The position numbers and the translations under genes are program-made. The notes under the pieces were generated by a model. That model was given only the letters and a program-made list of their open reading frames with translations, ran no database searches and had not been told where the DNA came from. From Blastocladiella emersonii ATCC 22665 (lineage: Eukaryota; Fungi; Blastocladiomycota), in NCBI GenBank assembly GCA_025594325.1, contig JANHCV010000012.1, positions 310,001 through 374,000 of the forward strand: DNA of 64,000 nt, written 5' to 3'. Position 1 is the stretch's first letter. The number at the start of each line of letters is the position of its first letter. This document shows positions 8,080 through 46,570 of this stretch, piece by piece.

Positions 8080-8832
8080 AACCCCAAAAGTGAACGGTTC
8101 CTACGGAGCCATGAGACTGACCAAAGGATCCCCTTCCTTTTGCTATTGCTTATATTTTCTCCGTGCCGAATTTAGGGCTGAAAGTACACTCTATTCATTT
8201 TTGTTTTACTCTTTAGGGTCGGCGGGCGGTGGAATCGCGGGCATAAGCGTCGCCCACGGCCAACGTGCCCCGCTGCGAAGCGCGTTTATCATGCGTTTCG
8301 CGTTGATCCCTTCTTGTCAAGCCTTGTCGCCAGGCTAGTTCAACGGCTGGTCAACCAACTTCGGGCGAGGCTTACTTTTGAAATCATTAGACTGCGCCGA
8401 AAGCGTCGCAGTATTGCGCGGCGATCAAGGTGTAAGACCCCGCGCTGTGCCAAACTCGCGCGGGCACACGCGCGACTGTGTGGCGCCGCCACACGCGCGA
8501 CGCGTTGCGCCACACTGACGCAATGAAGAGGCTGGCATGAAAAGCTCATGTAATTCATATCATAATAGACCGTCAAGAGCGACTTAAATCGTGGCCAGAG
8601 GACCGCGTGCCTGCATACGTCTCCGACCTGAGAGTCATCGGCGCGAGTTGCTTGATCGCGAAGATGCCCGCGTCATACGAGATGTTCTCGTAAGCGAGCA
8701 TCAGCTGTGCGAGCCAGCTCGCATCGACGGCTGCATCATCAAAACCTTCGTCCGGGAACAGTCTGAGGATTTCAAGCGGAAGCCGGCCGCGGCTGTGCGA
8801 AAGAATTTGGACGACGCCGGCCAGGTCGGTAT

Positions 8833-8858
8833 TGCCGTATCCCTATAGGGATACGGCA
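8833..8858. repeat. Left terminal perfect palindrome TGCCGTATCCCTATAGGGATACGGCA
   Basis: 26-bp self-complementary sequence at the outer edge of the TIR. Confidence 0.95.
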
Positions 8859-9603
8859 CGCGGCTGCCCTTAGGGACTTCGCCATCGAGTCGCGATTCAC
8901 CCGGGGCTCCCAATTGAATTCCCGTTGCTTACCCCGAGTGACACGTCTCATTGCTTACCCCAAGTGAATGAATCCCCGTTGCTTACCCCAAGTGAATGCT
9001 ATGAGTCATGCCGAAATCCTTAGGGATTTCGCCACCCGGACCGGAGGCCGAAGGCCGAAGCAGGTGGGCGGGCGGGCGGCGGCGGGCGGGTCACGTGGAT
9101 CACGTGCACATGAACGGCGCGGCGACGCGACCACGGAGTCACTCTACGACTTGGTCGGCGACTTGGTCGCGGCAATAGGCCCTTGAAGGCTCTCGGAATA
9201 ATTCCACGAGAGGTCGGCGACTGGTCCAAGAACGCGAGCGGCGACCCAGGTCGGCGACCAGCCCCGGATGGCTCATCGTGGCCACCACCTTTGAACCGTT
9301 CGCCGTAAGCCATAGACGGGACTGGACGGGACTGTCCATTGAAAACTCGCTCGGGCTAAGCAGTGGACGTCAGGACGTCACTAAGGGGGTGTTTTGAAAA
9401 GTTAGCAGGGAAAGGGGGGGGAAGTGACCACTCGAGTGACAACTTCCCCCCCCTTTCGAGTCTGGAGAGGTCAAAGACCCCCTTCAGTCCCGTCCAGTCC
9501 CGTCCATGGCTTACCCCGAGCGAGTTTCAATGGACAGTCCCGTCCAGTCCCGTCCATGGCTTACGGCGAACGGTTTGATGGAGCGGGCGGGGACGGCGGG
9601 TCC
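8833..9603 (+). repeat. Left terminal inverted repeat
   Basis: Reverse complement of 24711-25428; an identical 97-aa spurious ORF appears at 9020-9313(-) and 25002-25295(+); the match ends at GGCGGGTCC. Confidence 0.95.
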
Positions 9604-9678
9604 AGGCCAGGCTCCTGTGAACGGTCGCTGCGAGTACAGAAAGGTCAAAGTTGTATTACAAGGCAGTCGTAGGAGTCG

Positions 9679-11985
9679 TTACATCTCGTCGTCGGACAGC
9701 TCAAGGGTGTACGGCCCACGGTACGTGTAGATGGCAATCTTGCGGCCAGCCACCCGGCGACGCTTCACCCCAAAGAGCTCCTGCTTGTCAGCTGGGTTGA
9801 CTTCCTGCTTGAGGTACTCGCCAAACTTGTTCTGCGGCATTGGCTTGCGACCAGGGTAGCGGGCCGCGATATACTCCTGGTAAAACTTGAAGAGCGCGTC
9901 TGCCTCGAGCTCCTGCACGACTTCAACCCGCTGCGTGTGGTCCAGGAGGTTGAGCGGGAAGCCGCCGTACTCCATGATCTCCATGGCCAGCGCAGGGACC
10001 GGCTCCAGCGCCGCCATCATGGCGTTCTTGCGGGCCTGGTTGCGCGGGAAGTTGGTCAGCTTGAGGTGCGAGAGGTCAAGGCGCAGGATGTAGGTGTAGA
10101 TCTCGTCGGCGTGGTCCTTGACAAAGGCGCTGAGATCCGCAAAGTAGTTGACGTCCTGGCACTTGATGTTGGACATCTTAAGGACGAACTCGCGGCGACC
10201 AGTCTGGGTGATCGGCAGCACGTCGCAGTTGTTGGTTGCAATCATAAAGTTGTTGACGTTCTCGATGGCCTTGCGCTTCATGTACTTTTCGTTGACCATG
10301 AGCTTGCTCTTGGTGACCATGCTCTTGAGCTTGTCAAACGCGTTCTTGAGCTCGCCTGGCGTGCTGGAATTCATCTCGTCAAACAGGACGAGCATCTTGT
10401 GGGCGATCTCCGAGTTGAACTCGCCCTTGAGCCACGTCACTCCGTTGTCAATGGTCACGGCGTTGTTCTCGCCAATGATGTTCTCGACCAGGAGGTCAAA
10501 GAAGATGCCCTTGCCCGTGCCCTCGAGACCCGTCAGCAGCAGCACCACGCCGTTCGCCTTGCCCGTGGTGAGCAGGCACTGGATCCACTTGAGGACGTAC
10601 TGGTACTCGAGCTCGTGGCCGCTGCAGACCACGTCGCGGAGGTACTCGAGGTACATGGCGATCGACTCGGGCGCAATGTCGCGGCCAAGGTCCGTGGCCA
10701 GGAACCCGGAAAACGCGTTATAGTAGTCGATCAAAAGGCCGTTCTGGTGCGACGGGCCCCACTGCGGCTTGTGCATGTCAAAGATGAGCGCCTTGACCTG
10801 CGGCGCGTAATGGACGGCCCGCGCGCTGCACGCCTTCTTGACGTTGTCCTCGCCATTGACTGCCCAGTCGTCGGTCACGGTGCGGCGAAAGTACATCTCG
10901 CCGACCAGGTCCTTGCGGACAAACTCGCCCACGTACTTGATCACGGCCTCCTCCCACGACTCCGTGTCCTCGTCCTTCTTGCGGCTGACGCAGTGGCCAA
11001 TGACCTTGTTGATCCACTTGTCGTTGTAGTGCGGGTCGAGCGCGAGCTGCGCAGCAACAAACGCGGCTGGGTCCTCACAAAAGTCGGGGAGCTTGCCCTT
11101 GTCCTTGGACTCGGGGACCACGATCTCCTTCTCGTCCCACTCCACCTCAAAGCCCGTGTACTCGAGCGTGTTGGCGGACATCTTGGCGAGCAGCTCGGCG
11201 TTGATGCGGTCGTCCTTCTTGACCATGAACCCGTCAAACACAAGCACGCTTGGCACAAGGTCGTTGGCGCGGGCAAAGTCGATGGCGCGCATCAGGAGGA
11301 TCGACTCGACGGCCTGGAACAGGTTGGAGAGCACCGAGCCCTTGTTCATGGTCTTGTCCTTGCGGGGCTTGGACGCCTTGACGACGTGCGGGAAGTCCTT
11401 CTCGATGAGCTTGTACAGCGAGCCGTACAGCATGTGGTGGAAGGCCGCAAGCTCGGGGTGCACAGCGTCGCGGTCGACAAACTCGTTGAACAGCATTGAG
11501 AGGAACTCCTGCTTATCCCCGAGCCCCCACTTGGCCAGCGCGGCCGTGCGGTCGGCGAGGTACTGGTCAAAGACGCCGTGGCCGAGGTTGTAGTGCTGGC
11601 AGACGCCGCGGAGGATCGACGGCGCCGCGCCCTTCATGTCGAGGTCCTGGAGCACGCCCTTGGCCAGCGGGCAGCGGACCAGGTCCTTGCTGAAGCTCTG
11701 GAGCGACGGCGACGTGGCGTAGAGTCAGCCAAACTTCTTCTCAACCGAGGTCGACCGCGTGGTGAACGAGTACACGGTCTCCTTGCCGTCGCCGTAGCTC
11801 GCCTTGGCCAGCGCCGCGTAGGCCTTGAGCTTCTTCTTGACCTCAGCGTCGACGCCCGAGTACCGCGCGCAGAGCCCGTCGAGCACGTCCTTGTTGTAGT
11901 ACTCGCGCAGCACGACCTGGCGCGAGTCCGTGAACATGGACTTGGTGTAGTCGAGGGTCTTGGCGATCTTGGTCAGCTGGGGCAT
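9679..11985 (-). CDS. TVpol (PolA-like primase-polymerase) fused to D5-like SF3 helicase; one in-frame TGA at 11725-11727
   Basis: ORFs 11725-12132 and 9679-11655 are in the same frame; joined motif FG*LYATSPSLQ (GRLY), DLDMKGAAP, VFDG; helicase Walker A GLEGTGKG, Walker B LFDE, motif C ATNN; likely start ATG 11985. Confidence 0.85.
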
Positions 11986-12158
11986 GGCCGAGTAGTTACA
12001 GTTGAGCGCAGAAAAAAGCATTGTGCTTTGATGCGGAATAACGCAGTCGGGAGCGGGGGCGGGGCCGTGCTTTTGAAGCGCCGCGATTATCGCTATTGGC
12101 TGCTGGCCGTGTCTGGGGGTCTGGAGATGCAAGGTCGGGGGTCAGGTCGGGGGGGTGC

Positions 12159-13617
12159 GGCAAAATCACTGACCCCCATGCTCCCGTCTTGGGAGCCAAT
12201 CACGGCTCAGGTCACGATCTGTGCAAACCGTGACCTGGGCTGCGACTGACGGCAAAATCACTGACCCCCATGCTCCGATCTTGGGAGCGTATCGCGTCTC
12301 AGGTCACGATCTGTGCAAACCGTGACCTGGGCTGCGACTGACGGCAAAATCACTGACCCCCATGCTCCGATCTTGGGAGCGTATCGCGTCTCAGGTCACA
12401 ATCCGTTCAAACCGTGACCTGGGCTGCGACTGACGCCAGGGTCGCCGACCCCCATGCTCCGATCTTGGGAGCGTATCGCGGCCCAGGTCACGATCTGTTC
12501 AAACCGTGACCTGGGCCGCGACTGACGGCAAAATGACCGACCCCCATGCGCCAATCTTGGGAGCGTCTCGCGGCCCAGGTCACGATCTGTTCAAACCGTG
12601 ACCTGGGCCGCGACTGACGGCAAAATGACCGACCCCCATGCTCCAATCTTGGGAGCGTATCGCGTCTCAGGTCACGACCCTGAGACCGTGACCTGGGCCG
12701 CGACTGACGGCAAAGTAACCGACCCCCATGCTCCGATCTTGGGAGCGTATCGGGTCCGAGGTCACGATCCGTTCAAACCGTGACCTGGGCTGCGACTGAT
12801 GGCAAACTGACCGACCCCCATGCTCCGATCTTGGGAGCCAATCACGGCTCAGGTCACGATCTGTGCAAACCGTGACCTGGGCTGCGACTGACGGCAAAAT
12901 CACTGACCCCCATGCTCCGATCTTGGGAGCGTATCGCGTCTCAGGTCACGATCTGTGCAAACCGTGACCTGGGCTGCGACTGACGGCAAAATCACTGACC
13001 CCCATGCTCCGATCTTGGGAGCGTATCGCGTCTCAGGTCACAATCCGTTCAAACCGTGACCTGGGCTGCGACTGACGCCAGGGTCGCCGACCCCCATGCT
13101 CCGATCTTGGGAGCGTATCGCGGCCCAGGTCACGATCTGTTCAAACCGTGACCTGGGCCGCGACTGACGGCAAAATGACCGACCCCCATGCGCCAATCTT
13201 GGGAGCGTCTCGCGGCCCAGGTCACGATCTGTTCAAACCGTGACCTGGGCCGCGACTGACGGCAAAATGACCGACCCCCATGCTCCAATCTTGGGAGCGT
13301 ATCGCGTCTCAGGTCACGACCCTGAGACCGTGACCTGGGCCGCGACTGACGGCAAAGTAACCGACCCCCATGCTCCGATCTTGGGAGCGTATCGGGTCCG
13401 AGGTCACGATCCGTTCAAACCGTGACCTGGGCTGCGACTGATGGCAAACTGACCGACCCCCATGCTCCGATCTTGGGAGCGTATCGCGTCTCAGGTCACG
13501 ATCCGTTCAAACCGTGACCTGGGCCGCGACTGACGGCAGAGTCGCCGACCCCCATGCTCCGGTTTTGGGAGCGTATCGCGTCTCAGGTCACGATCCGTTC
13601 AAACCATGACCTGGGCC
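12159..13617. repeat. Tandem array of 16 x ~92-bp units with internal palindromes
   Basis: TGACCTGGG anchors at 12231, 12323, 12415, 12507, 12599, 12689, 12781, 12873, 12965, 13057, 13149, 13241, 13331, 13423, 13515, 13607. Confidence 0.95.
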
Positions 13618-13724
13618 CTCCCACGGTCCCTGACCCTGACCCAGGCCCAGCTACCCAGAAAAAAGAACGTTGCGTTCAAACGCACTTGAGCCCATGGAGC
13701 CTTTTTGTTGACAGTCAGTAAACC

Positions 13725-14963
13725 ATGTCGCTCGACTCTCTTGCCTCCCAGGTCGCCATTGCCCTTGCCCAGCATGTCGCCGCGGACGTGGTGCAGCAGG
13801 TCATGGAAAAGCTCCAGCCCAACGAGCACAAGGACTTGGAAGCGCGCTACAATGACTTGGTCGCGAGCCACAAGGACTTGGTCGCGAGCCACAAGGACTT
13901 GGTCGCGAGCCACAAGGACTTGGTCGCGAGCCACAAGGACTTGGTCGCGCGACTCAAGACCATCGAGTCACGTGACCCAGATCACGGCGCCAATCAGCGA
14001 GTCACTCCCATGGAAGTTGACACCCCGGAGCCGCCCCAAGTCAAGTTCGCCGAGCTGACCAAGGAGGCCATCGAGGCATGTGTCAACGCGCCCGTGGTGA
14101 ACAAGAACGGGGAGCAGGCTACGCTGAGCGACATGGACAAGGCGAAGACGACTCGCGTGCTCCTTGCATTTGCCAAGTCAGGCATGGACATCCAGGACGT
14201 CGAGGCCGTGTCCAAGGCCGTGGCCACGTACCGCGCGACCAAGGGGTCCAAGAACGTCCAGGGCCTGCAGGTCGAGACGCTCAAGGCCTTGGCCAAGTAC
14301 TGTACGTGGAACGGGTGGACTGAGCTTGGGGCCAAGTACACGGAGGCCAAGAAGCGGGACGCCGACGCCAGCGTGGACGTGCGCAAGGAGCTCAAGTCGG
14401 GCGCCCTTCCAAGCCGTGCCGTTCTGCTGGCCGCCGCGGTTGCTGCTGAGAAATGGGACAAGCTCGAGTGCACGGGCACCATGCGCTACCTCCGCCTGTA
14501 CCTCCAAGTTGTGTGCGCGACCCGCAGCGACCTCGCGTTCCTGACCACAGCCCCAAGCGACAAGTACCCATCCTACAACCCCGAGACCAAGACGCTGGCT
14601 GGCCCAATCTGTGTCAAGACCGAGGGTCGTGGCTATGAGTTCTCGCACGTCATTGCCAACCCCAACGTGGCAGACGCCCTGGAGCGGGTCATGGCCAAGC
14701 GCAAGGAAGACGGCTACGAGCTGCTGTTCTTTGACTACACGATCAAGGACCTTGACAACGCCAAGGTGAACACGGCCATTTGCAAGGACTGGTCCAAGAC
14801 GATTGGCCTTGCTACCAAGAAGCTCAAGTTTGACGGGTGCGGCGTGCAGCAGATCCGTTGGATTGCCGCGAGCGAGAACGCCGGGGCTTACGCGGCCATT
14901 GCCCAGCGCGCCAATGAGATGGGTCACAGCGTGCCTGTCGCCGTCGCCCACTACATGGTGTAA
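13725..14963 (+). CDS. Tyrosine recombinase with N-terminal heptad repeats (412 aa)
   Basis: ATRSDLAFL (first Arg), VKT (Lys), QQIRWIAAS (second Arg), MGHSVPVAVAHY (His and Tyr 9 apart; Arg to His 23 residues, YR-like spacing). Confidence 0.75.
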   Translation: MSLDSLASQVAIALAQHVAADVVQQVMEKLQPNEHKDLEARYNDLVASHKDLVASHKDLVASHKDLVASHKDLVARLKTIESRDPDHGANQRVTPMEVDTPEPPQVKFAELTKEAIEACVNAPVVNKNGEQATLSDMDKAKTTRVLLAFAKSGMDIQDVEAVSKAVATYRATKGSKNVQGLQVETLKALAKYCTWNGWTELGAKYTEAKKRDADASVDVRKELKSGALPSRAVLLAAAVAAEKWDKLECTGTMRYLRLYLQVVCATRSDLAFLTTAPSDKYPSYNPETKTLAGPICVKTEGRGYEFSHVIANPNVADALERVMAKRKEDGYELLFFDYTIKDLDNAKVNTAICKDWSKTIGLATKKLKFDGCGVQQIRWIAASENAGAYAAIAQRANEMGHSVPVAVAHYMV

Positions 14964-14983
14964 CTTTTGTCTGTTGTATTGTA

Positions 14984-16096
14984 ATGTACCCACACAAAGA
15001 ACCTTTGACTGCTGAACAGACCGAGTACCTGACAGACTTGTACTACAAACGCGGCCACGTCGGGGTTGGGATCCACCGGCTCTTTGACATTGTTGACCGC
15101 GAGCATACAGGGAAGCACATCTACCGCGCCCAGCTCGAGCGGTGGCTCAACGACCAGTCCGTGTGGCAGCAGTACAAGCGCGCACCACAGAAGCGGCAAG
15201 ACATTCGAAGCATCAGCTCAACCAGTCCGGGACGCAACTTCCAGCTTGACCTCATTGACATGGGCAAAAACGGTACGTACAAAGGCTTCCATTACATTCT
15301 TACGTGTGTCGACCTCGCGAGTCGGCGCGTCTACCTACGCCCAGTCAAGACCAAGGACAAGACGCGGGAAGCATGGTCTGGCGTGGTCGCCAAGCACAGC
15401 CTTGTACCTGCCACAATCCAGACGGACAATGGCACCGAGTTCTTTGGCATTGAGGCCGGGACCGACGTCAAGCACATCAAGGGCAAGGCAGGCGTGCCAT
15501 ACGGTCAAGGTGTTGTTGAGCGTATGAATGGGACCATCCGCCGGATGCTGACGCCGTGGCTGTCCATCCCAGGCAACAACGACTGGCCCAAGCACCTCGA
15601 GACCATTGAATCTGTGATCAACAGCAGCAAGTCAAGGGCCACGGGCAGGGCGCCCAACGAGTTCCATGACATGCCCCGCGAAATGGCCAAGGACACACTC
15701 AAGGCGATCCGAGCTGCCAAGGGCAAGCCAGAAGGCGACCCTCTGAGCGCGTTGCTGAAGGTAGGGGCCCAGGTCCGAGTCCGCGAGCCGTACAAGACTG
15801 CCATGGAGGCCAAGGGGAAGCCGGTCTGGTCGCCAACTGTGAGCCAGGTCCAGGTTGTGCGCAAGGGGTCAGGCATGAGCAATCCAAGCTACAAGGTCCA
15901 AGGTCTCAAGGGCTTCTACCCTCGAAGCGACGTCCAGCCAGTCACAGCAACCCAGGACCCGCCGACCAGGCCACGCATGGCCCCAAGTCTTCCAAGGCCC
16001 CCTGTTGCGCGCACCCCGGTCACACCAAGGGAGCCCTCGACCCGGGTCAGGCGCGTCCCAGTCCGAGTCCAAGAAAAGTGGGACCGCGGGCTTTAG
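14984..16096 (+). CDS. Retroviral-like (rve, DDE) integrase of Polinton type (370 aa)
   Basis: FQLDLIDM, YILTCVDLASR, IQTDNGTEF, QGVVERMNGTIRRML; C-terminal SH3-like VGAQVRV...WS...YKV..GFY. Confidence 0.93.
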   Translation: MYPHKEPLTAEQTEYLTDLYYKRGHVGVGIHRLFDIVDREHTGKHIYRAQLERWLNDQSVWQQYKRAPQKRQDIRSISSTSPGRNFQLDLIDMGKNGTYKGFHYILTCVDLASRRVYLRPVKTKDKTREAWSGVVAKHSLVPATIQTDNGTEFFGIEAGTDVKHIKGKAGVPYGQGVVERMNGTIRRMLTPWLSIPGNNDWPKHLETIESVINSSKSRATGRAPNEFHDMPREMAKDTLKAIRAAKGKPEGDPLSALLKVGAQVRVREPYKTAMEAKGKPVWSPTVSQVQVVRKGSGMSNPSYKVQGLKGFYPRSDVQPVTATQDPPTRPRMAPSLPRPPVARTPVTPREPSTRVRRVPVRVQEKWDRGL

Positions 16097-18036
16097 AGCA
16101 TGGCCCAATGGCTTTGAATGATGACCTGGCAGTCGTTGGCAACTGCCACCAACGGGATCCAGATGAAAGAGTAGCTCTTGGCCGCGTCAAGGTACTCGAT
16201 GCTCAAGAACTGAAGGAACTGGACGTTGCCTTCAGCGCGGCACCCGGTGACAAGCGACACTGCAATCATGTCCGTCATGTTGTACAGCGCAAAGTTCACA
16301 GTGTGGGATCCAGGGAGCGTGCCGTTTGCGTAGTAGCCCTTTGCATGGACAAGGTAGTAGCCACTGACAGGGGGTTTGACGCATCCATTGATCACGGACG
16401 TGAACGCGCCCGCCGTGGACTGGAACGCAAAGGTGGCCGGACCTGTCGACGCTGTGCCGCCAATGATCTTGCCGCCCGTGGTCACTCCGTTTGTGGAGCG
16501 GTGCTCGGCCTGAGCAACGTACCGGGTCAGGCTGGACCGCGAGTCGACGTACGCCTTGTTTGCCGCGTCAGTGCCTGCCACGGGAGCGAGGTCAAGGGTG
16601 AGCTGCCCTGTAAACCGACCAGTGCCATTGACGCGGAGCTTTTCTGTGCCAAGCGTCGCCGAGCCCACGACCACGTTGCCGCCACCTGCCACAAGGGAGA
16701 CCCCGCCCGTGGTCGCGGACGCAATCTCAATGTTACCCGCCGCCGTGCATGCCAGGTTGCTCTTGAGGACGCCTGCCTGCTTAAAGTCGACGTACGTCAA
16801 TGTATTGGCAGCTGAGTCAAAGACAAGGTTTGCGCTCGTGGCATTTTGGACCAGGACGTTGGGCACAGTCAGTTGCTTGCTGACTCCAAGACCACCAGCA
16901 ATGGTGACTGCTCCAGTGCTTGACGTCGAGCTGTCCGTCGTATTCGCAAAGGCAAAGTCAGCGCCGAGCCCAAGGGTGGACTGGGGGAGCGTGCCAGTGA
17001 CCGAGGCCGCGCTCACGGCTGTGACCTTGGCCGAGACGTCGGGGAGTCGTGCCAGGTCAATGGTCCCTGCAAGCTTGGCCGAGTCAATGCCAGATGCCAG
17101 CTTGGCGTTGGTCAGGGTCCCGTTGGCGATGCGGGCAGGGTCGAGGGTCCCAGTGAGCTTGACCGCCGACACGTCCGTGACCTTGGCGTCTGTGACTGCG
17201 CCTGCTGCCAGCTGGACCGTTCCAATGGACCCGACGTTGAGCTTGGCCCCGTCAATGCCAGTTGCCAGCTTGGCGTTGGTCACAGCCGCGTCTGCCAGGA
17301 CCGAGGTGCCGACTGTGCCGGCTGCCAGCTTGGACCCATCAATGCCAGTTGCCAGTTTGGCGTTGGATACGGCTGCGTCTGCCAGGGCTCCCGTCCCAAT
17401 AGTCCCTGCAACGAGTTTGGACCCAGACACGGACGCGACCTTGGCATCCGTGACTGCCAGGTCAATGAGAGCTGCCGTGCCGACTGTGCCTGCCACGAGC
17501 TTGGACCCGGACACGGACGCGACCTTGGCATCAGTCACTGCGCCGTCTGCCAGGACCGAGGTCCCGACTGTGCCTGCCACAAGCTTGGACCCAGACACGG
17601 ACGCGACCTTGGCATCAGTCACTGAGCCGTCTGCCAGGACCAAGGTCCCAACGGCTGGGAGGTTGGACGCACTGAGCACGCCCACGACCTTGGACGCAGA
17701 CACAGTATCCAGCTGAGCATCAACGAGCTTGCCTGTGACCTGCCCTGCTGTAATGGTCGCGACCTTGTCGGCCGTGACGCTGGCCGGGAGCAGCTGTGCC
17801 GTGCCGACCGACTTGACAAAGAGCCCTGCTGCGCCCACGCCAAGGGTCTGGTCGTCGACCTTGGCCGAGACAGTGGTCCCTGAGACTGCCACGCCAGGGC
17901 CAGCAACAGGTGCACCGACTGTGGCATACACGGTACTGATGGCCGCGTCGACGTATGCCTTGGACACGTCAGAGACCCCAGTGGCAGACACGGTCAGAGA
18001 CGCAGTACTTGAGACGTTAAAGATATTCTTGACCAT
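16093..18036 (-). CDS. Fibre/spike-like protein (~647 aa) with 28-aa repeats and C1q-like head
   Basis: Start ATG 18036; KAYVD motifs twice; LADGAVTDAKVASVSGSKL repeats (84-bp period); TTDSSTSSTGAVTIAGGLGV; C-terminal PVSGYYLVHA. Confidence 0.75.
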   Translation of the reverse strand: MVKNIFNVSSTASLTVSATGVSDVSKAYVDAAISTVYATVGAPVAGPGVAVSGTTVSAKVDDQTLGVGAAGLFVKSVGTAQLLPASVTADKVATITAGQVTGKLVDAQLDTVSASKVVGVLSASNLPAVGTLVLADGSVTDAKVASVSGSKLVAGTVGTSVLADGAVTDAKVASVSGSKLVAGTVGTAALIDLAVTDAKVASVSGSKLVAGTIGTGALADAAVSNAKLATGIDGSKLAAGTVGTSVLADAAVTNAKLATGIDGAKLNVGSIGTVQLAAGAVTDAKVTDVSAVKLTGTLDPARIANGTLTNAKLASGIDSAKLAGTIDLARLPDVSAKVTAVSAASVTGTLPQSTLGLGADFAFANTTDSSTSSTGAVTIAGGLGVSKQLTVPNVLVQNATSANLVFDSAANTLTYVDFKQAGVLKSNLACTAAGNIEIASATTGGVSLVAGGGNVVVGSATLGTEKLRVNGTGRFTGQLTLDLAPVAGTDAANKAYVDSRSSLTRYVAQAEHRSTNGVTTGGKIIGGTASTGPATFAFQSTAGAFTSVINGCVKPPVSGYYLVHAKGYYANGTLPGSHTVNFALYNMTDMIAVSLVTGCRAEGNVQFLQFLSIEYLDAAKSYSFIWIPLVAVANDCQVIIQSHWAML

Positions 18037-18056
18037 GTTTAACTTAAGCAAACAGA

Positions 18057-18308
18057 ATGATTTCCAGCGACCATGACCTGAGCCTGGACAAGTGGCAGGA
18101 GCACCTCGCCGGGACCATGCCTGTGCCAAGCAGCTGGTACAGCAAGAGCGACGAGGACAAGGCCAAGTGGCTACGGAAGCGCGACCGCAAGGCCAACCGG
18201 TACACACACGTCAACGACGAGGCAGCGCGGGCCGAACGGGTCAAGATCCGGATCTACAAGGCACTCAACGCCAAGCGCCGGGACCAGGGGGCAAATAGCA
18301 CCGTCTGA
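18057..18308 (+). CDS. Small basic viral hypothetical protein
   Basis: Lys/Arg-rich 83-aa ORF with C/G-ending codons like its neighbours; start may be the second ATG at 18117. Confidence 0.45.
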   Translation: MISSDHDLSLDKWQEHLAGTMPVPSSWYSKSDEDKAKWLRKRDRKANRYTHVNDEAARAERVKIRIYKALNAKRRDQGANSTV

Positions 18309-18385
18309 GGGACAAAAGGCACCTGCCACGGGGAAAAAGGTACCAACAGGGGGACGTTTTATTTTCGGTCCATACAGTAACTATC

Positions 18386-20101
18386 ATGGGCCGAAGAACA
18401 GTACCAGATCTACTTGCAAGAGTGACCAAGGCAACTGGTGGGCGCATCACGGCAGAGCGCCTTGTAGGGCAGAAGATCAAGGCGACCATTGACGGCCGCG
18501 AGTACACGTTCCCCAATGCCAAAGAGCTCCTCGACGTCTGGGTGCCTTACATCCTTGCCTTTGACTACAAGGTGACGCCCGAGAGCTATGCCAACGACTT
18601 TGACCGCAAAAGAGGCGACTCGCTGTTCTACCTCAAGCACCAGGACAGCGTCACTGGGTACGAGGTCAAGGACCTCCAGGAGCACGTCCGAGATACGCTT
18701 AAAGCGTGGGAAGAGCACCAGGCAACGGGCAAGGTTACTCGAGTCCCAGTCGCTCCACCAGCGGCAAGTCCTGGACCAGAGCCCCCCGAGTCAGCCACGG
18801 ACAGCGACAGGGGTAGCAGCGAAGAGGAACGCGACGAGCTGGCAGAAGAGATCTCGCGAGCCCTGGACGTCATTGACGAGGACGCTGTACCAGACCACTT
18901 GCTCCCCGTGCCTGTCCGGCCAGTCATGCCCGAGCAGTACCCAGTTGAGGCTGGCGACTACGTTGGCCAAGACATTGACGAGTACGGCGCCATGATCCCT
19001 GGCTGGTAACTGATCCAGAACGACAATGACGGCGGCAACGACCTCCCACCACGACTTGATGACGGCACACGCGACATTGTGGTCATGCCACCAAGCTATG
19101 CCCCTGACGTGGCACAGCGACCAAGCGTGTACAACGAGGGTCACGTCCACCCGGCCATGGACGAGGCACGCATGATTGAGGGCTCCAAGGACTTGCAGGT
19201 CTACAACCCCGAGCGGGCGCTGATGACCACGGACGACATGGAAGTCGACGTCGTCCAGAACTTTCAACAGTTCAACCAGTTCGTCTACAACAGCTACACG
19301 CAGCAGGACACCCAGAACATTGACATGCGGCAGTTCATCACCCAGTATGAGAACAACTACTACGAGCAGAACGTGGACATGCGGCAGCAGATCCTGGTCC
19401 AGTACAACAATGACCCAAACGTCATGGCCGCGCTTGAGCTCATTGCCTCGCAGTTTGCTGGGTCCCAGGTCATGCAGTACCAGGCGTACCAGGCGCTCAT
19501 TGATCAGACGGCGGCCGCTCAGGGACTGGCCATGGACTCGTTTGCCAACCTCGCGTCCAGGATCGTGGACACGCTCTGAGCCGAACGCAACGACTTTGTC
19601 CGCCAGATCGACGCTGGCAATCGCGCGATTGTGTCCGAGATTGCCACGGGCATGTCCTCGGCGCTCAGCAACCAGCAGGTGCTCATGAACCAGCTCGCAA
19701 GCGGCGTCCAGGGCGCGATCCAAGGGCAGACCCAGAGCAACGAGGCCATGACCAAGACGCTCCAAGACCTTGGGTCCAAGCTGGACACTATTCCTGCACC
19801 CCAAGTCGTTGTCCAGCCTGCTGACACGAGCAGCCTCGAGGCCATGATCAGGGAGCTCGCCGCGCAAAACAATTCCGGTGGTACTTCTAAGAAGACCGAC
19901 ATGCTCCTCGAACAGATCCTCAAGCAACTGGGCTACAAGAAGCCGACCGACGCGAAGCTGTTCACGGACAAGCGGGCAGCGGGTAGCGGGCTGACGGCGC
20001 CCAAGATCCAGCGTCACCAGAAGATCCCTGAGCGGCCCGTCAAGCAGGTCCGCGAGACCCCAAAGCGCAGCGGCATTGTCTTTGACCTTGGCTGGGACTG
20101 A
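18386..20101 (+). CDS. Single 571-codon viral gene split by TAA (19007-19009) and TGA (19577-19579)
   Basis: ORFs 18386-19009, 19079-19579 and 19631-20101 share one frame with coding-like linkers and no T-rich intergenic tract; Q/N-rich helical C-terminal half. Confidence 0.7.
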
Positions 20102-20127
20102 CGCCCTTTTTTGTTTGCAGTCTTTAA

Positions 20128-20925
20128 ATGTACGACATTGTTGCCATTGACAACGGCTTTACACGCAACGACGATGGCGAGCCGCTGCCAATCCCCAAGC
20201 ACCCATTTACCATGAACGTCATTGGCGCCAAGGGTCAGGGCAAGTCAACGCTGATCGCGAACATGGTCTGCTTCCCGCACTTTTACAAGGGCCAGTTCGA
20301 CAACATCTGGGTGTTCAACCCAACATTCCACGCCAACGACAAGTACGAGTACATTGCCAGTCAACCGATCCTGCGACCGCCCAAGAAGGAGCGCAACGTG
20401 CTGGACCCCCAGGAGCGCGACCCGGACCGGCTCAAGATCAAGCCAAGCTGCATTGTCACAGACCCCGAGCAGTTCATCCCAACCCTGCTCAAGATGCGCC
20501 AAGACCTGACCAAGACGTTTGAAGAGTCTGGCAAGAAGGCGCTCCAGGACCAGCTGCTGATCATCGACAACGTGCTCGGGCTCAAGCTCCTGAGCCACAA
20601 GACGCTGACCAACTTTCTGTGCAACTCGCGGCACTTAAAGATCAGCTGCATCATTGGCGTCCAGCGGTGGTGTGCCCTGCCCAAGACTCTGCGTATCAAC
20701 TGCTTGTACAGCGTCGTCTACCCAATCTACGACAAGACTGAGGTCCAGACGCTGCACAAGGAGATTGGGTCGCAGTTCGACCTCAAGGAGTTTGAGGCCA
20801 TCATCGAACAGCTCTTTGACACGCGTACTGGCAACACAAAGCGACGCTTCCTGGGCGTCAACAACCAGAACCCGCCCAAGTACCGGCTCGTAGACAGCTT
20901 CAGCGAGTGGATCGTGAAGGGATAG
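20128..20925 (+). CDS. A32-like (FtsK-HerA) DNA packaging ATPase
   Basis: Walker A GAKGQGKST, Walker B LLIIDN, NSRHLKISCIIGVQ, LPKTLRINC. Confidence 0.92.
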   Translation: MYDIVAIDNGFTRNDDGEPLPIPKHPFTMNVIGAKGQGKSTLIANMVCFPHFYKGQFDNIWVFNPTFHANDKYEYIASQPILRPPKKERNVLDPQERDPDRLKIKPSCIVTDPEQFIPTLLKMRQDLTKTFEESGKKALQDQLLIIDNVLGLKLLSHKTLTNFLCNSRHLKISCIIGVQRWCALPKTLRINCLYSVVYPIYDKTEVQTLHKEIGSQFDLKEFEAIIEQLFDTRTGNTKRRFLGVNNQNPPKYRLVDSFSEWIVKG

Positions 20926-20965
20926 ACCGCCGACTTTTTTTTGTTGCAGTGTTCTAAACCAAACC

Positions 20966-22186
20966 ATGTCCAGTACCAACGCCCAGTTCTCGCAGGTCCT
21001 GTCCAAGACGCTCCCTCCCGAGATGTCGTTCACCCTGCCCAAGGAGTCTGTCTATGCCGAGCGCCAGACTGTCCAGTTCACGGCTCAGGGCGGCCCCGAG
21101 TTTGCTCCTGGCAACAGCATCAGCGTCCTGCTCCCGCCGCGCGACGACATGATGGACACGCACTGTACTTTCCTGCAGTTCTCAGCCAAGACCACGGACG
21201 CCAACGTCGCCTTCTGCAATGGTATCTTCAGCGTCATTGACTGCGTCCGCATCTACAGCGCGTCTGGTGCCCTACTCGAAGAGCTCCCGTACTACAACCT
21301 GCGTCAGCGCATTGAGGCCGACGTGACAGTCCCCCAGTACCTCAAGGACTCGTGTCTTGGCGTGGCACAGGGCTACTTTGCGTCCGGCGCCGACAAGTTT
21401 GCTGTCTTGTCTGGGCTGCACCGGTACATGCTGCCCATCAAGTCGGCCCTGCTGGCAAACCAGAAGCACCTCCCCATGAAGTACACAGGCGGTATCCGCG
21501 TCGAGTTCACCCTTGCGCCTGGCAGCGACGCTTGAGTGGTCAAGAACAATGCCATCCCGGGCTACACAGTCAAGGACGTCTGCATTGTCTCGGACCTGAT
21601 CAAGCTCAACGACCAGCAGATCGCGGTCATGGACGCGGCCTTCAAGAAGCAGGGGCTCAAGCTCTTTGGTACGACCTACAACCACCACTTCCTGAACTAC
21701 TCGGTGCCCAACTCAACGCTCAACGTCTCGGACCGCTCTGCCTCGCAAAAGGACATCCTGCTGTCGTTCCGCGACAATGCTGTGCTCAATGACAACTCCA
21801 AGGACTCGTTCCTTCGCGCCAAGACCATTACCACGTACCAGTTCAGCGTAGCCAGCCAACTCTTCCCTCAGCAACCTGTCCGCTGCGACGACTACGCGTC
21901 TGAGGCGTTTGTTGAGCTGACCAATGCCTTCCATGGCCACGTCATTGGCGCTGGCCTCACAGTTGACAAGTTCAACGCGCCGGCCGAGGGTACCTTTGTT
22001 GTTGGCCGTGACCTTGAGTCGAGTCGCACCGTGGTGAGTGGCGACAAGTCATGCAAGTCGCGGGCCGTGGACATGCAGGTGATCCTGACTTCAAGCGTGG
22101 CCCCAAACCAGCGCGTGGACGCCTTCATTGGCATCGACGTGGTCTACGAGTTCCTGCCGACTGGCGAGATCAACATCTACAAGTAA
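20966..22186 (+). CDS. Double jelly-roll major capsid protein, PLV type; one in-frame TGA at 21533-21535
   Basis: 20966-21535 and 21536-22186 are contiguous in frame (406 codons); FCNGIFSVIDCVRIY..GALLEELPYYN, LPMKYTGGIRVEFTLA, YQFSVASQLFPQQPV; position between ATPase and minor capsid. Confidence 0.85.
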
Positions 22187-22228
22187 CGGCCCTGTCCTTT
22201 TTTTTCTTGCGTAGAGTTAAACCCCGCC

Positions 22229-22495
22229 ATGATCTTCTGCAACCTATGGACCAACTTTAGCAACGTGCTTGGCCAAGTCGGGTCCTTTGTCAACAAACAC
22301 ATGCCAACCGTGCTCAAGGGCGTCAAGACCGTGTCCAAGTTCTTTGAGCGGTCGCACAACCCCGCCGTGAGCTCCATTGCGCAGATGGTGACCAAGGGCG
22401 CCGACCTCGCCCAAGACATTCACACCTGGTACAACCGACCAACGAGCGAGATTTTTGAAGCAGACGCCGACGACACAGGCACGGCCGTACAATAA
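22229..22495 (+). CDS. 88-aa viral protein with amphipathic N-terminus
   Basis: Own upstream T-tract and ATG; LWTNFSNVLGQVGSFVNKHMPTVLKGVKTVSKFF shows helical hydrophobic periodicity. Confidence 0.65.
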   Translation: MIFCNLWTNFSNVLGQVGSFVNKHMPTVLKGVKTVSKFFERSHNPAVSSIAQMVTKGADLAQDIHTWYNRPTSEIFEADADDTGTAVQ

Positions 22496-22513
22496 ATTGT
22501 TGTCTTTGTTTAA

Positions 22514-23257
22514 ATGTCCGAGTACAAGACGCTGACCATCTGCAGCCGCGACCTCAAGAACGGCATCCTGTACCTGCCACGACCCCTGTCCGTGCGCGGC
22601 GTCAAGGTCAACTCGGCGTACCTCTGCAACAGCTGGCACACGGTCAACTCCAAGGCCAACAAAGTGTACCTGACCCAGAGCCGAGGCGCGCTGACGTTCC
22701 CTGGCACCATCACAGTCCCCGACGGCAACTACACAGTCGATACGTTCACAGCCACGCTCAAGAGCCTGCTCAACAACGCGCCCTTGGCGTACCTCTGGCA
22801 GGGCACCTGGGACGTCCAGGTTGACTCGACTACCCAGAAGATGCGCCTGGCCAACGACACGGTCGACTTTACAATTGGAACAGGGACGGCGTCGCTGAAC
22901 GTCCACATGGGCTTTGTTGGAGCGTATGGCTACAGCAAGGTCCAGTACGCGTCGGCGCTGGTCAACATCTCGCCCATCAACCTGCTTCACATCTACTCGC
23001 GCAACCTGGGTACCTGGCTCGCAGACAACATGTACAGCGCTTACCCACAAGACAACGGCGTACTTTGTAGCATCCATGTCACGCAACCCTTTGGCAGCTG
23101 GTTTGAGCATCGACCACACATGGGTGACTACTTTCGCTTTGACGCGCAGGGACAGGCCCAGCAGATTGACTGTATTGACATTGACGTGGTAGACGAGAGC
23201 CTGCGCTCTGTTGACTTTCTCGGCCAACCCTTCTACGTCGAGCTTGCGTTCATCTGA
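22514..23257 (+). CDS. Minor capsid (penton, single jelly-roll) protein
   Basis: LTICSRD, VKVNSAYLCNSWHTVN..NK, TITVPDGNYT...LKSLLN, LHIYS, IDIDVVDE..VDFLG. Confidence 0.8.
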   Translation: MSEYKTLTICSRDLKNGILYLPRPLSVRGVKVNSAYLCNSWHTVNSKANKVYLTQSRGALTFPGTITVPDGNYTVDTFTATLKSLLNNAPLAYLWQGTWDVQVDSTTQKMRLANDTVDFTIGTGTASLNVHMGFVGAYGYSKVQYASALVNISPINLLHIYSRNLGTWLADNMYSAYPQDNGVLCSIHVTQPFGSWFEHRPHMGDYFRFDAQGQAQQIDCIDIDVVDESLRSVDFLGQPFYVELAFI

Positions 23258-23288
23258 CGTTGACTTTTATTGTTGTCTTACTGTAAAC

Positions 23289-23390
23289 ATGATCCTCGAG
23301 ACGCTCCTTGTTGCGACCAACGCCCTGATCCTCGTAGCCAACCTGGCCATTGTCGGGTACACAAGCAAAGTATTCCGCGTTGTAGAGTAA
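23289..23390 (+). CDS. 33-aa hydrophobic peptide (not in ORF track)
   Basis: MILETLLVATNALILVANLAIVGYTSKVFRVVE*, preceded by the same T-tract and TAAAC-ATG context as other viral genes. Confidence 0.5.
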   Translation: MILETLLVATNALILVANLAIVGYTSKVFRVVE

Positions 23391-24033
23391 GCAACAACAT
23401 GTGCTTTAAATTCTTTCTGCAAAGGCATAGTAAGACACAGGACAATGAATACTGGCTCTACTGCATCAACGCCCCGCGCACCTTCCACGAGCATCCCTTG
23501 GACTGGCCGTCTGGGCCCCCAGTCAACAGCCAACTACACGGCCATCCGCGACGTGGCCCTGCCAGGTGCCAAGGTTGTGTACACTGTCTGCTTTGAATAG
23601 ATCCTTCAAGTTAACTTGGTTAGCTACCTTGAAGCCTTTACTGGTCGCTCTCAGACTACCCGCCGGTATGTGTACTTGTGCCCGCAGCATGGGTACACAA
23701 CTTGGGCCCACAGCAGCTCATTGTCGTAGACCCAGCTGGGAGCATCGTAGTGATCGCACGGCGGCTTGGGCAGGGGAACAATCTCTTTGATACAGCCTCG
23801 CATGGTTACAGTAGTCCAACAAAGTTTAATTCAACAAACGCGTTCAACACACCTGGCATGACGTAGCAACGGGACACACTACGGCAATGACATAAAGTAG
23901 AAATAAGGGGTGCTCCGCCCTGTCCAGGAAGCGTTGGCCAAGCGCCTCCCAGACTGCTCCATGCTGGAGGTCTCCTTTCATGGTGGCCAGCCACTAATCA
24001 GAGTTCCAACACGGAGCAGGCATCATTGCTAAT

Positions 24034-24222
24034 ACTCATCGAACCACACAGCGCCAACACACCCAAAAGCCTGTGGAATACTGTTGGTATCCCACAGTGA
24101 CTCATCGAACCACACAGCGCCAACACACCCAAAAGACTGTGGAAGACCGTTGGTATCCCACAGAGACTCATCGAACCACACAGCGCCAACACACCCAAAA
24201 GAGAGAGAGAGAGAGAGAGAGA
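24034..24222. repeat. 66-bp tandem repeat x3 followed by (GA)11
   Basis: ACTCATCGAACCACACAGCGCCAACACACCCAAAAG at 24034, 24100, 24166; GA run 24201-24222. Confidence 0.9.
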
Positions 24223-24574
24223 GGAATGGATCAAAGAGCACTGCATGGGTAGCTAATCCAAGCAGCATCCATGATCCAGACCAAGACAGGAGTCAACCAA
24301 GTCTATTGCTGTGCACAAGCAGATAGCCCTGTAAAACTCAAGCCAAAGGAATAGGGAAGTGGCCACCCACAATGTTGGCCATGCACCCATACCAGAAGCC
24401 TACTGCAAGCATTGGGCGCATTGCAAAGATGGCCTATACACTTGGAGCAGGGCTTGAGGCAGTGAATCTGTGACATGGCTTTCATAGTGAGTGGCAAAGA
24501 GCAGTTCTCAGGGCGGGGGGAGCGGGGGGTTCTTATAGGGCCAGGGTTAGCGAAAAATCCCTCACAGGGCCCTG

Positions 24575-24705
24575 ATCTGGCACCCCCGACCCGACCCCTG
24601 ATCTGACCCCCGCCTGACCCCGTCACCTGACCCAGTCACCTGACCCCGCCTGACCCCCACCTGACCTGGCTGCCCTGACCCTCCATGACCTGGCACCCCC
24701 AACCA
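24575..24705. repeat. CTGACCC(C)-rich short-repeat cluster
   Basis: About ten TGACC motifs just inside the right TIR. Confidence 0.75.
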
Positions 24706-24710
24706 CGGAC

Positions 24711-25428
24711 GGACCCGCCGTCCCCGCCCGCTCCATCAAACCGTTTGCTGTAAGCCATGGACGGGACTGGACGGGACTGTCCATTGAAACTCGCTCGGGG
24801 TAAGCCATGGACGGGACTGGACGGGACTGAAGGGGGTCTTTGACCTCTCCAGACTCGAAAGGGGGGGGGAAGTTGTCACTCGAGTGGTCACTTCCCCCCC
24901 CTTTCCCTGCTAACTTTTCAAAACACCCCCTTAGTGACGTCCTGACGTCCACTGCTTAGCCCGAGCGAGTTTTCAATGGACAGTCCCGTCCAGTCCCGTC
25001 TATGGCTTACGGCGAACGGTTCAAAGGTGGTGGCCACGATGAGCCATCCGGGGCTGGTCGCCGACCTGGGTCGCCGCTCGCGTTCTTGGACCAGTCGCCG
25101 ACCTCTCGTGGAATTATTCCGAGAGCCTTCAAGGGCCTATTGCCGCGACCAAGTCGCCGACCAAGTCGTAGAGTGACTCCGTGGTCGCGTCGCCGCGCCG
25201 TTCATGTGCACGTGATCCACGTGACCCGCCCGCCGCCGCCCGCCCGCCCACCTGCTTCGGCCTTCGGCCTCCGATCCGGGTGGCGAAATCCCTAAGGATA
25301 TCGCTATATTCATTATGAGTCACTCGGGGTAAGCAATGAGATATCACGTGGGTTAGCCCGGGTGGATAGAGTCCAGAGGCGAAGTCCCTAAGGGCAGCTG
25401 CGTGCCGTATCCCTATAGGGATACGGCA
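24711..25428 (-). repeat. Right terminal inverted repeat
   Basis: Reverse complement of 8833-9603, with a diverged subterminal segment near 25300-25377. Confidence 0.95.
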
Positions 25429-45947: not shown

Positions 45948-46062
45948 AGGGTTCGAGGGTTTGAGAGGGTTTGAGGGTTCGAGGGTTCGAGGGTTTGAGG
46001 GTTTGAGGGTTCGAGGGTTCAAGGGTTCGAGGGTTCGAGGGGGTACAAGGGTATAAGGGTGA
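45948..46062 (+). repeat. Degenerate 8-bp tandem repeat GAGGGTT(C/T)
   Basis: About a dozen copies decaying at the 3' end. Confidence 0.85.
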
Positions 46063-46508
46063 GGTTTCTCGTCCTGGAGACGTGGCTTGGTTAGCGGGTG
46101 TGGAGTGGGATCCGGTTAAGGTACATGTCTTGAGGTGCACTGGGGAGATGATGCTTCGTTCGACCCCCGCCGTGGCAGGGCGGGACGACGTTGAACTTTG
46201 AGTAAGCAATTTGACATCCCCCGCACCGAAAAGGAGAGTACCACCGGACAACCCGCGAGTTGCACCCGCTGATCAAGTTCACCAGTATTATTGTTTTCGA
46301 CTTGGAACATTTCATGTTCGCTTTTTTTCGGGTTTTGAATACGATTTCTCTCCACGACCGTTTCTCTCGCTCTCCCATGGATGTCGGATTTGCTCGCTGC
46401 TGCCTGTTGCGCGGTCGGCACGTCAAGGGATCAATCGTTCAATTCAAGCTTGGGATGTGGAGAGCTCCTCTGCTCTTCTTCTCCGAGAATGCCTCCTCCG
46501 TGTCGTCG

Positions 46509-46570
46509 CGAGTCTGCGTTGCAAGTCTGCGTTGCAAGTCTGCGTTGCGAGTCTGCGTTGCGAGTCTGCA
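46509..46570 (+). repeat. 13-bp tandem repeat AGTCTGCGTTGC(A/G) x4.5
   Basis: Units at 46511, 46524, 46537, 46550, partial 46563. Confidence 0.85.

What the first reader, a model, noticed from the sequence alone, without database searches (positions are those of the whole stretch)
8833..8858. Perfect terminal palindromes suggest hairpin telomeres resolved by the element's own tyrosine recombinase
Seen: both ends finish in TGCCGTATCCCTA|TAGGGATACGGCA (8833-8858, 25403-25428), beyond which flanks are unrelated. The element has no pPolB/terminal protein, so it needs another way to replicate ends. Established: protelomerases (TelN, TelK, ResT) are YR-family enzymes that cut palindromes into covalently closed hairpins. 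Inference: the free genome is linear with hairpin ends, the YR is a telomere resolvase, and the outer 13 bp are an opened hairpin captured at integration.
Basis: partly seen in the sequence, partly recalled or inferred. Interest (0 to 1): 0.85.

Follow-up and report, generated by a model that had tools for sequence, protein, structure and literature searches.

The report
Palindrome-tipped fungal provirus with integrase scar
A 16.6-kb capsid-encoding virus inserted in the genome of a likely water-dwelling fungus ends on both sides in the same perfect 26-base palindrome, which likely folds back to let it copy its ends, while its end letters and a 5-base target duplication point to its retrovirus-type integrase as the likely inserting enzyme and its tyrosine recombinase is predicted to resemble ordinary recombinases more than telomere-sealing enzymes.

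Summary
The palindromes are real (2 exact hits, none in 100 shuffles) and are the exact tips of a Polinton-like provirus (8833-25428), likely of Blastocladiella emersonii. In contigs of sequencing runs four different host flanks join at the same base. The ends read TG...CA, and the window's left flank forms a 5-bp target duplication with a flank from the run contigs whose end is identical to the window's left end. So the window copy is likely a chimera of two insertions, which explains its unrelated flanks. There is no pPolB; the replicase is a likely PolA-like/SF3 helicase fusion, so hairpin-primed end copying is plausible (about 0.5). The tyrosine recombinase keeps its catalytic residues, but its model aligns better to Xer/Cre (Z 9-10) than to TelK/TelA (Z 4.5-5.4); telomere-resolvase activity about 0.15. 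A 2026 preprint describes such palindrome-tipped, non-pPolB, rve elements in a protist, and this scan already reported two other copies from this genome. New member of a known kind.

The parts
8833..8858 (.). Left terminal perfect 26-bp palindrome; starts TG, ends CA; self-complementary 6-bp core CTATAG
   Evidence: run contigs break or change flank exactly at 8833
25403..25428 (.). Right terminal perfect 26-bp palindrome, identical
8828..8832 (+). Host 5-mer GGTAT: one copy of a likely 5-bp target-site duplication whose partner lies at another element end, not in this window
   Evidence: (flank of X1 record 4, X2 record 8, X3 record 9 ends in its reverse complement; 6-mer does not match)
8833..9603 (+). 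Left terminal inverted repeat (partner 24711-25428); 97-99% identical except a subterminal block (8884-8978) and base 8862, which mark two end types
24711..25428 (-). Right terminal inverted repeat, of the other end type
9009..9034 (.). Second, imperfect 26-bp palindrome resembling the terminal one; shares motif CCTTAGGGAYTTCGCC with 8868 (and 25393, 25297 on the other end)
9679..12021 (-). Replicase gene: likely PolA-like (TVpol-like) domain fused to SF3/D5-type helicase, interrupted by one in-frame stop at 11725-11727
   Evidence: PF19263 E 5e-20; NrS-1 helicase E 1.8e-21; both pieces colinear with intact 764-770 aa Allomyces proteins; PolA-like call rests on motifs only
12158..13616 (.). 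Array of about 16 units of 92 bp, each with an imperfect palindrome, between the divergent replicase and YR genes
13725..14963 (+). Tyrosine recombinase of the PLV/virophage/giant-virus type, 412 aa; R267, K298, R378, H401, Y410 present
14984..16096 (+). rve (retroviral-type DDE) integrase, 370 aa, intact frame, acidic triad aligned to PFV integrase
   Evidence: PF00665 E 2.2e-6, below Pfam's cut-off; PFV integrase E 4.6e-4
16093..18036 (-). Putative fibre protein
   Evidence: PF09327 E 2.7e-8
20128..20925 (+). A32-type packaging ATPase
   Evidence: PF04665 E 2.9e-11
20966..22186 (+). Double jelly-roll major capsid protein gene with a premature stop at 21533-21535; 406 aa and intact in sister copies
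   Evidence: sister P0021 resembles DJR capsid clusters and its low-confidence model hits PBCV-1, PRD1, mavirus capsids
22514..23257 (+). Putative minor capsid (penton) protein, by position and size only
   Evidence: ORF; no family hit

Best explanation
The 26-bp palindrome is the fixed tip of both ends of an integrated Polinton-like virus that lacks a protein-primed polymerase; it likely folds back into a hairpin that primes copying of the free linear genome, and the element's rve integrase, not its tyrosine recombinase, likely inserts it into the host. Shown: palindrome, terminal repeats, gene content, one constant boundary for four flanks, TG...CA ends, a 5-bp flank match across copies. Inferred steps: (1) the 3' strand ending in the palindrome folds back (11-bp stem, 4-nt loop predicted) and its 3'-OH primes strand-displacement synthesis by the PolA-like/SF3 replicase; (2) a cut after the terminal CA, 13 bp from the symmetry axis, regenerates a CA-3'OH end; the rve integrase is the simplest candidate because it is the enzyme class that cuts after CA and leaves 3'-OH, whereas a YR leaves a 3'-phosphotyrosine; (3) rve joins both ends to host DNA with a 5-bp stagger and repair copies palindrome and target; (4) the copy in this window is a recombinant or mis-joined product of two insertions; (5) the YR is a Xer/Cre-like site-specific recombinase used for something else (excision, dimer resolution, or insertion into a giant-virus genome). 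Confidence: rve-made insertion about 0.85, fold-back role about 0.55, whole model about 0.5.
For: Constant boundary: four different flanks join at 8833 with the whole palindrome, and multi-copy contigs begin or end exactly there. Target duplication: the window's left flank ends GGTAT; the flank on X1 record 4 and X2 record 8 ends in the reverse complement, 5 but not 6 letters, and these records match 8833-8862 with 0 differences, including the G at 8862 that distinguishes the left end from the right. X3 record 9 links that flank to 158 bases identical to the left end. Depth of the left-type repeat contig in X1 (329) is about the sum of these two flanks (168+149); in X2 58.6 against 35.6+44.6, a looser fit. 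Chance of a 5-mer match for a named pair about 0.001 (0.26^5, by hand), about 0.007 over all 6 pairs of 4 flanks. rve gene intact. No pPolB. PMC12220804 (passages): rve makes TSDs, YRs do not. bioRxiv 10.64898/2026.07.28.741278 (section 7): terminal palindromes next to TSDs go with non-pPolB replicases and particular RVEs, hairpin priming proposed. YR fold: Xer/Cre Z 8.9-10.2 against TelK 5.4, TelA 5.1 and 4.5.
Against: Only one TSD pair was found among 4 flanks; the partners of the other two flanks were not seen. All four runs are one sample and may be the source of the assembly. No fold-back junction was listed (table 5 empty), so nothing shows free or hairpin-ended DNA. A PolA-like primase-helicase could start internally, and elements with such a replicase can be circular (Sputnik; recalled). 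The PolA-like assignment has no profile hit and the RxxxK motif described in PMC2579912 is not evident. This copy's replicase and capsid genes carry stops, so it cannot itself run the cycle. The rve D-to-E spacing looks shorter than in PFV integrase (gaps).
Confidence: 0.5

Rival explanations
1. One reading: the free genome has covalently closed hairpin ends, the YR resolves replicated telomere junctions by cutting the CTATAG core with a 6-bp stagger, and the rve integrase nicks after the CA 13 bp from the tip, so the hairpin unfolds into the full palindrome on integration.
For: With rve doing host insertion the YR needs another job. The site has arms around a self-complementary 6-bp core, as protelomerase targets do (PMC3558466 passages). 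TelA and TelK are Foldseek ranks 1-3 by E-value (0.014-0.023), and a ResT/TelK cluster scores 0.96 by language-model features. YR genes lie within 2-6 locus tags of a capsid gene in 8 of 12 annotated YR loci listed, so the YR is a stable part of the family. bioRxiv 10.64898/2026.10.13.758929 (passages) reports YRs correlating with PolA/AEP replicases and calls the link elusive.
Against: The Foldseek E-values are tied with XerA and Cre (0.026-0.05), none under 0.001, and TM-scores favour Cre (up to 0.50) over TelA/TelK (0.30-0.35). VIA-align Z: Xer/Cre 8.9-10.1, TelK 5.4, TelA 4.5-5.1. Atlas neighbours are Preplasmiviricota proteins (0.98, 192-198 shared features) and PF00589 (180) ahead of ResT/TelK (147). 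Second-Arg to His spacing is 23 against 28 in TelA; 23 is the Cre/XerD spacing (recalled). In Halocafeteria, PLVs are said not to carry both RVE and YR, yet PLV subtype 4, which has an RVE, has the palindromes (Fig. 4A not visible), so such ends seem to exist without a YR.
Confidence: 0.15
2. The palindrome is a symmetric recombination site for the YR: because each tip is its own reverse complement the two tips are also direct repeats, so YR could excise the provirus as a circle or resolve dimers, leaving one palindrome in the host.
For: The tips match each other directly as well as inverted. Geometry 10-11 bp arms plus 6 bp core resembles dif/loxP-type sites (recalled). The YR fold is Xer/Cre-like. 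Related imperfect sites recur at 8868 and 9009-9034.
Against: A symmetric core gives no direction, and the circle junction would be a 1.5-kb palindrome. No solo-palindrome scar in the window. The 92-bp array of imperfect palindromes beside the YR gene is an alternative target.
Confidence: 0.15
3. The palindrome is only an end-recognition site for the integrase or replicase dimer, or a fold-back accident fixed in the founder of this subfamily, and has no hairpin function.
For: All ends seen belong to one young subfamily, so constancy shows common descent rather than selection; no compensatory change was seen. The Halocafeteria preprint names accidental annealing as an alternative.
Against: Perfect symmetry is kept while the adjacent block differs between end types; palindromic tips recur in five subtypes of unrelated elements and go with non-pPolB replicases.
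Confidence: 0.18

Closest known systems
Palindrome-tipped endogenous virophages (subtypes 1, 2, 5, 6) and PLV subtype 4 of Halocafeteria seosinensis (bioRxiv 10.64898/2026.07.28.741278; section 7 and passages read, figures and supplements not visible)
   Same: Palindrome at the TIR tip next to a TSD, non-pPolB replicase, RVE integrase, hairpin priming proposed
   Different: Fungal host; 26 bp against 52 nt in subtype 5; here a PLV carries both RVE and YR, which the preprint reports only for virophages
Mid-GC EMALEs of Cafeteria burkhardae (PMC8547959, passages)
   Same: No pPolB, long primase/helicase, both rve integrase and YR, 3-5 bp TSDs; YR proposed for insertion into giant-virus DNA
   Different: They are mavirus-like virophages; the word 'palindrom' does not occur in that paper's main text
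PLVs of zoosporic fungi: Spizellomyces punctatus, Allomyces macrogynus (PMC7805220, passages)
   Same: Integrated PLV genes (MCP, ATPase, helicase) in early-diverging fungi; the Allomyces helicases are 45-50% identical to this one
   Different: End structures not described in the passages seen; no named Allomyces protein among YR hits
Protelomerases TelA, TelK, TelN, ResT and the phaeovirus telomere resolvase (PMC3558466, PMC13236599; passages)
   Same: YR-type catalytic chemistry; palindromic target with self-complementary 6-bp core
   Different: This YR aligns less well to TelA/TelK than to Xer/Cre; in the Ectocarpus virus the telRL site is internal and a separate YR excises the provirus, whereas here the palindromes are at the integration ends
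Parvovirus/AAV terminal resolution (recalled, not looked up)
   Same: Terminal palindrome folds back to prime; nick opposite the hairpin regenerates the end
   Different: No HUH Rep nickase found here; dsDNA capsid module of PLV type; perfect palindrome allows no flip/flop

Membership tests
Polinton-like virus | Double jelly-roll major capsid protein | tested here: met
   on intact sister P0021 (model pLDDT 35.6, so the fold hit is weak alone; the two lines agree); no Pfam hit
Polinton-like virus | A32-type packaging ATPase | tested here: met
   PF04665 E 2.9e-11
Polinton-like virus | Terminal inverted repeats, 14-40 kb | tested here: met
   16,596 bp, TIRs about 720-770 bp
Polinton-like virus | Minor capsid protein | tested here: inconclusive
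   candidate 22514-23257, no hit
Polinton (strict sense) | Protein-primed PolB | tested here: not met
   no such family in 13 element ORFs; the only long replication ORF is an SF3-helicase fusion
rve-integrated elements | DDE integrase gene | tested here: met
rve-integrated elements | TG...CA termini | tested here: met
   that this is the retroviral-type end signature is recalled
rve-integrated elements | 4-6 bp target-site duplication | tested here: met
   absent within the window copy; one 5-bp pair across ends of the same type; single instance
Halocafeteria-type palindrome-tipped elements | Palindrome at TIR tip beside TSD, non-pPolB replicase, RVE | tested here: met
Halocafeteria-type palindrome-tipped elements | RVE of the same clades | not tested
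Protelomerase (TelN/TelK/TelA/ResT) | Catalytic R, K, R, H, Y of YR/topo IB type | tested here: met
   shared with all YRs, so not diagnostic
Protelomerase (TelN/TelK/TelA/ResT) | Fold closer to TelK/TelA than to Xer/Cre | tested here: not met
   VIA-align: TelK Z 5.4 (rmsd 6.5, 218 aligned), TelA 5.1 (7.5, 188) against XerA 10.1 (12.9, 233), XerH 9.1 (3.8, 153), Cre 8.9 (6.4, 241); Foldseek E-values tie; model pLDDT 81.8, pTM 0.65 from a 10-row alignment
Protelomerase (TelN/TelK/TelA/ResT) | Match to PF16684 (ResT/TelK catalytic domain) | tested here: inconclusive
   0 of 10 family members list it at E up to 5; 2 of 10 weakly match PF00589
Protelomerase (TelN/TelK/TelA/ResT) | Palindromic target with self-complementary 6-bp core | tested here: met
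   CTATAG core; 6-bp stagger per PMC3558466; that it is the YR's target is not shown
Protelomerase (TelN/TelK/TelA/ResT) | Makes covalently closed hairpins; free genome hairpin-ended | not testable with these tools
   only contigs of DNA runs were available; no fold-back joint listed

The most novel reading that the evidence does not exclude
The PLV/virophage-type tyrosine recombinase is a convergent telomere resolvase: these viruses replicate as hairpin-ended linear DNA resolved by the YR, and the rve integrase inserts them by nicking after the CA 13 bp from each hairpin tip. This would explain why YRs travel with PolA/AEP replicases across polisuviruses and why some elements carry two 'integrases'.
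Probability: 0.15. Interest if true: 0.8.

Novelty: new member of a known kind. Interest (0 to 1): 0.36.

Why it matters
How Polinton-like viruses without a protein-primed polymerase copy their ends is open; a 2026 preprint calls the YR-PolA/AEP link elusive and another proposes hairpin priming without a test. This family offers a short, exact end site, intact YR and rve genes and dozens of copies in a culturable saprotrophic fungus, so both questions can be tested directly. It also warns that a missing TSD in one assembled copy is not evidence of YR-type integration.

Tried and rejected
No whole genome was held, so sister insertions could not be read. Viral and metagenome contigs gave no relative: palindrome scans 0 hits; YR, capsid and replicase scans 0 confirmed of 20, 145, 117 and 183 pattern matches. 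No RNA holder listed. No fold-back joint and no empty-site joint listed in the contigs (7 joints not shown; contigs drop rare forms), uninformative. The partner flank is not in the window. The right flank is a degenerate 2-kb repeat but gave no empty-site homologue of the left flank. YR profile against solved structures by sequence: 2 unrelated hits. PHROGs: only P0010 hit an integrase family, E 0.0036. Folding of the left 268 nt as a whole is not better than shuffles (z -1.06); only the terminal stem is notable. Chance origin of the palindromes rejected. Variable P-nucleotide-like hairpin opening rejected: same boundary in 4 of 4 flanks. Paper searches: 'polinton-like'+'protelomerase' 0, 'polinton'+'Blastocladiella' 0, 'virophage'+'telomere resolvase' 2 listings of one giant-virus study, a five-term protelomerase search 0, one search listed one paper that was not read.

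Full report
Observation. The 26-mer TGCCGTATCCCTATAGGGATACGGCA lies at 8833-8858 and 25403-25428. It occurs twice in the window and in none of 100 shuffles; the expectation for one such palindrome is about 0.0016. The two copies cap terminal inverted repeats of about 720-770 bp that are 97-99% identical except for base 8862 and a subterminal block at 8884-8978. Inside the window the flanks show no duplication.

The element. Between the tips (16,596 bp) lie an SF3/D5-type helicase gene (PF19263) whose upstream frame continues across one stop and is colinear with intact 764-770 aa proteins of Allomyces macrogynus. Its N-terminal part has a conserved Arg and two Asp motifs compatible with the PolA-like TVpol domain of PMC2579912 (passages), but no profile confirms this and the RxxxK motif is not evident. 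Then follow a 92-bp array, a tyrosine recombinase, an rve integrase (PF00665 E 2.2e-6; PFV integrase E 4.6e-4), a fibre-like gene, an A32 ATPase and a capsid gene with a premature stop. An intact sister capsid resembles double jelly-roll clusters and its low-confidence model hits PBCV-1, PRD1 and mavirus capsids. No pPolB was found among 13 ORFs scanned. All 7 YR hits and all 7 capsid hits are Blastocladiella emersonii proteins, one capsid 100% identical over 95% of the query, and one capsid cluster has 26 members (15 listed). The host is therefore likely this zoosporic fungus and the family is multi-copy. It is a Polinton-like virus.

Where the element ends. Contigs of four DNA runs of one sample were laid on 8770-8990. 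Four different flanks join at base 8833 with the whole palindrome: the window's left flank, the window's right flank, a flank on X1 record 4, X2 record 8 and X3 record 9, and a flank on X4 record 13. The X3 loose end is a consensus of two records; checked by hand it equals, at 30 of 30 positions, a letter-by-letter merge of the X1 flank with the reverse complement of the window's right flank, which also shows that loose ends abut 8833. Multi-copy contigs start or stop exactly at 8833. The boundary is thus constant, and the element reads TG...CA.

How it got in. The window's left flank ends GGTAT. The flank of X1 record 4 ends in its reverse complement over 5 letters, not 6. That record and X2 record 8 match 8833-8862 without difference, so they carry the left-type G at 8862, and X3 record 9 ties the same flank to 158 bases identical to the left end. 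In X1 the left-type repeat contig has depth 329, about 168+149 of the two flanks; in X2 the fit is looser (58.6 against 35.6+44.6), and depth is no copy number. The simplest reading is one insertion with two left-type ends and a 5-bp target duplication (chance about 0.001 for this pair, 0.007 over 6 pairs; by hand). The window's right end, of the other type and with another flank, belongs to another insertion; the partner flank is not in the window. The window copy is then a recombinant or a mis-join; contigs cannot tell which. TG...CA ends (signature recalled) with a 5-bp duplication fit rve; PMC12220804 states that rve makes TSDs and YRs do not (passages). Limits: one pair, one sample, possibly the assembly's own source.

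The tyrosine recombinase. R267, K298, R378, H401 and Y410 are present and conserved in the family. The family is small by sequence: 4 representatives among 1.84 billion. The model (pLDDT 81.8, pTM 0.65) aligns by VIA-align to XerA Z 10.1, XerH 9.1, Cre 8.9, topoisomerase IB 8.9, IntI 8.8, and to TelK 5.4, TelA 5.1 and 4.5; in the second look no protelomerase is among the 50 rows shown, the last at Z 6.2. Against this, Foldseek ranks TelA and TelK first by E-value (0.014-0.023), practically tied with XerA and Cre (0.026-0.05), with lower TM-scores. Among viral models the best named hits are giant-virus YR-like proteins; the EhV-86 telomere resolvase is rank 25. Language-model neighbours are Preplasmiviricota proteins, then PF00589, then ResT/TelK. 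The Arg-His spacing is 23 against 28 in TelA. It is not filed as a protelomerase. This lowers membership more than function: a Xer/Cre-like enzyme on a symmetric core could still hairpin.

Mechanism. Best supported: the palindrome is a fold-back end (11-bp stem, 4-nt loop predicted) that primes copying by the element's replicase, regenerated by a cut after the terminal CA, with rve doing the insertion. A YR nick leaves a 3'-phosphotyrosine, not an extendable end, and a cut at the symmetry axis would not explain a boundary 13 bp away from it; a CA-specific integrase would. All of this is inference.

What is known. bioRxiv 10.64898/2026.07.28.741278 (section 7 and passages) reports palindromes within TIRs next to TSDs in four virophage subtypes and one PLV subtype, tied to non-pPolB replicases and particular RVEs, and proposes hairpin priming; its text implies a palindrome-tipped PLV subtype without YR, but the figure and supplements that would settle this could not be seen. 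PMC8547959 (passages) describes pPolB-less EMALEs with rve and YR. PMC7805220 (passages) reports PLV genes in Allomyces and Spizellomyces. PMC11296320 (passages) suggests YR action on poxvirus-like ends for dimer resolution. PMC13236599 (passages) shows a true resolvase and fold-back reads in a brown-algal giant virus. bioRxiv 10.64898/2026.10.13.758929 (passages) finds YRs correlated with PolA/AEP replicases. PMC13533422 and PMC3671162 were seen as passages and add background only. I found no paper on this fungal family or on protelomerase activity in PLVs, within a library that lacks most subscription papers. Earlier notes of this scan cover two other copies in this genome and pointed me to the Halocafeteria preprint at the same time.

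Verdict. Real feature, a fungal member of a recently described kind of viral end. The resolvase claim is the less likely reading but remains the interesting one and is easy to test. Interest 0.36.

Noticed in passing
window 12158-13616: About 16 tandem 92-bp units, each with an imperfect palindrome (17-bp arms, 12-bp spacer), with a higher-order repeat, between divergent replicase and YR genes; candidate origin or YR target. Contigs of X1 and X2 join 12098 to 13629, so some sister copies appear to lack the array.
   Followed up: partly
window 8868-8883, 9009-9034, 8915-8998: Motif CCTTAGGGAYTTCGCC recurs next to the tip and inside a second imperfect 26-bp palindrome; three copies of TTGCTTACCCCRAGTGA on the left end, one on the right.
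   Followed up: partly
window 9281-9344 and 9525-9588 (mirrored at 24726-25034): Nested 64-bp inverted repeat 180 bp apart inside each TIR, built of GACGGGACTG units.
   Followed up: no
window 11725-11727 and 21533-21535: Single in-frame TGA stops break the replicase and the capsid gene of this copy; YR, rve and ATPase frames are open. No intact B. emersonii replicase was among the 9 hits.
   Followed up: partly
window 25497-29323: Degenerate host repeat of about 1.9-2 kb in tandem (68-78% identity), high depth in the runs; the element's right end abuts it.
   Followed up: no
window 45948-46041 and 46504-46569: Short tandem arrays: 8-bp unit AGGGTTCG (11.5 copies, telomere-like) and a 13-bp unit (5 copies).
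   Followed up: no
window 24034-24231: 66-bp tandem repeat ending in a GA run in a gene-poor stretch inside the element's right part.
   Followed up: no
proteins P0026-P0030, P0050-P0057: Allomyces macrogynus and A. javanicus hold many copies of the same replicase; their elements are the natural test of whether palindromic tips need a YR.
   Followed up: no
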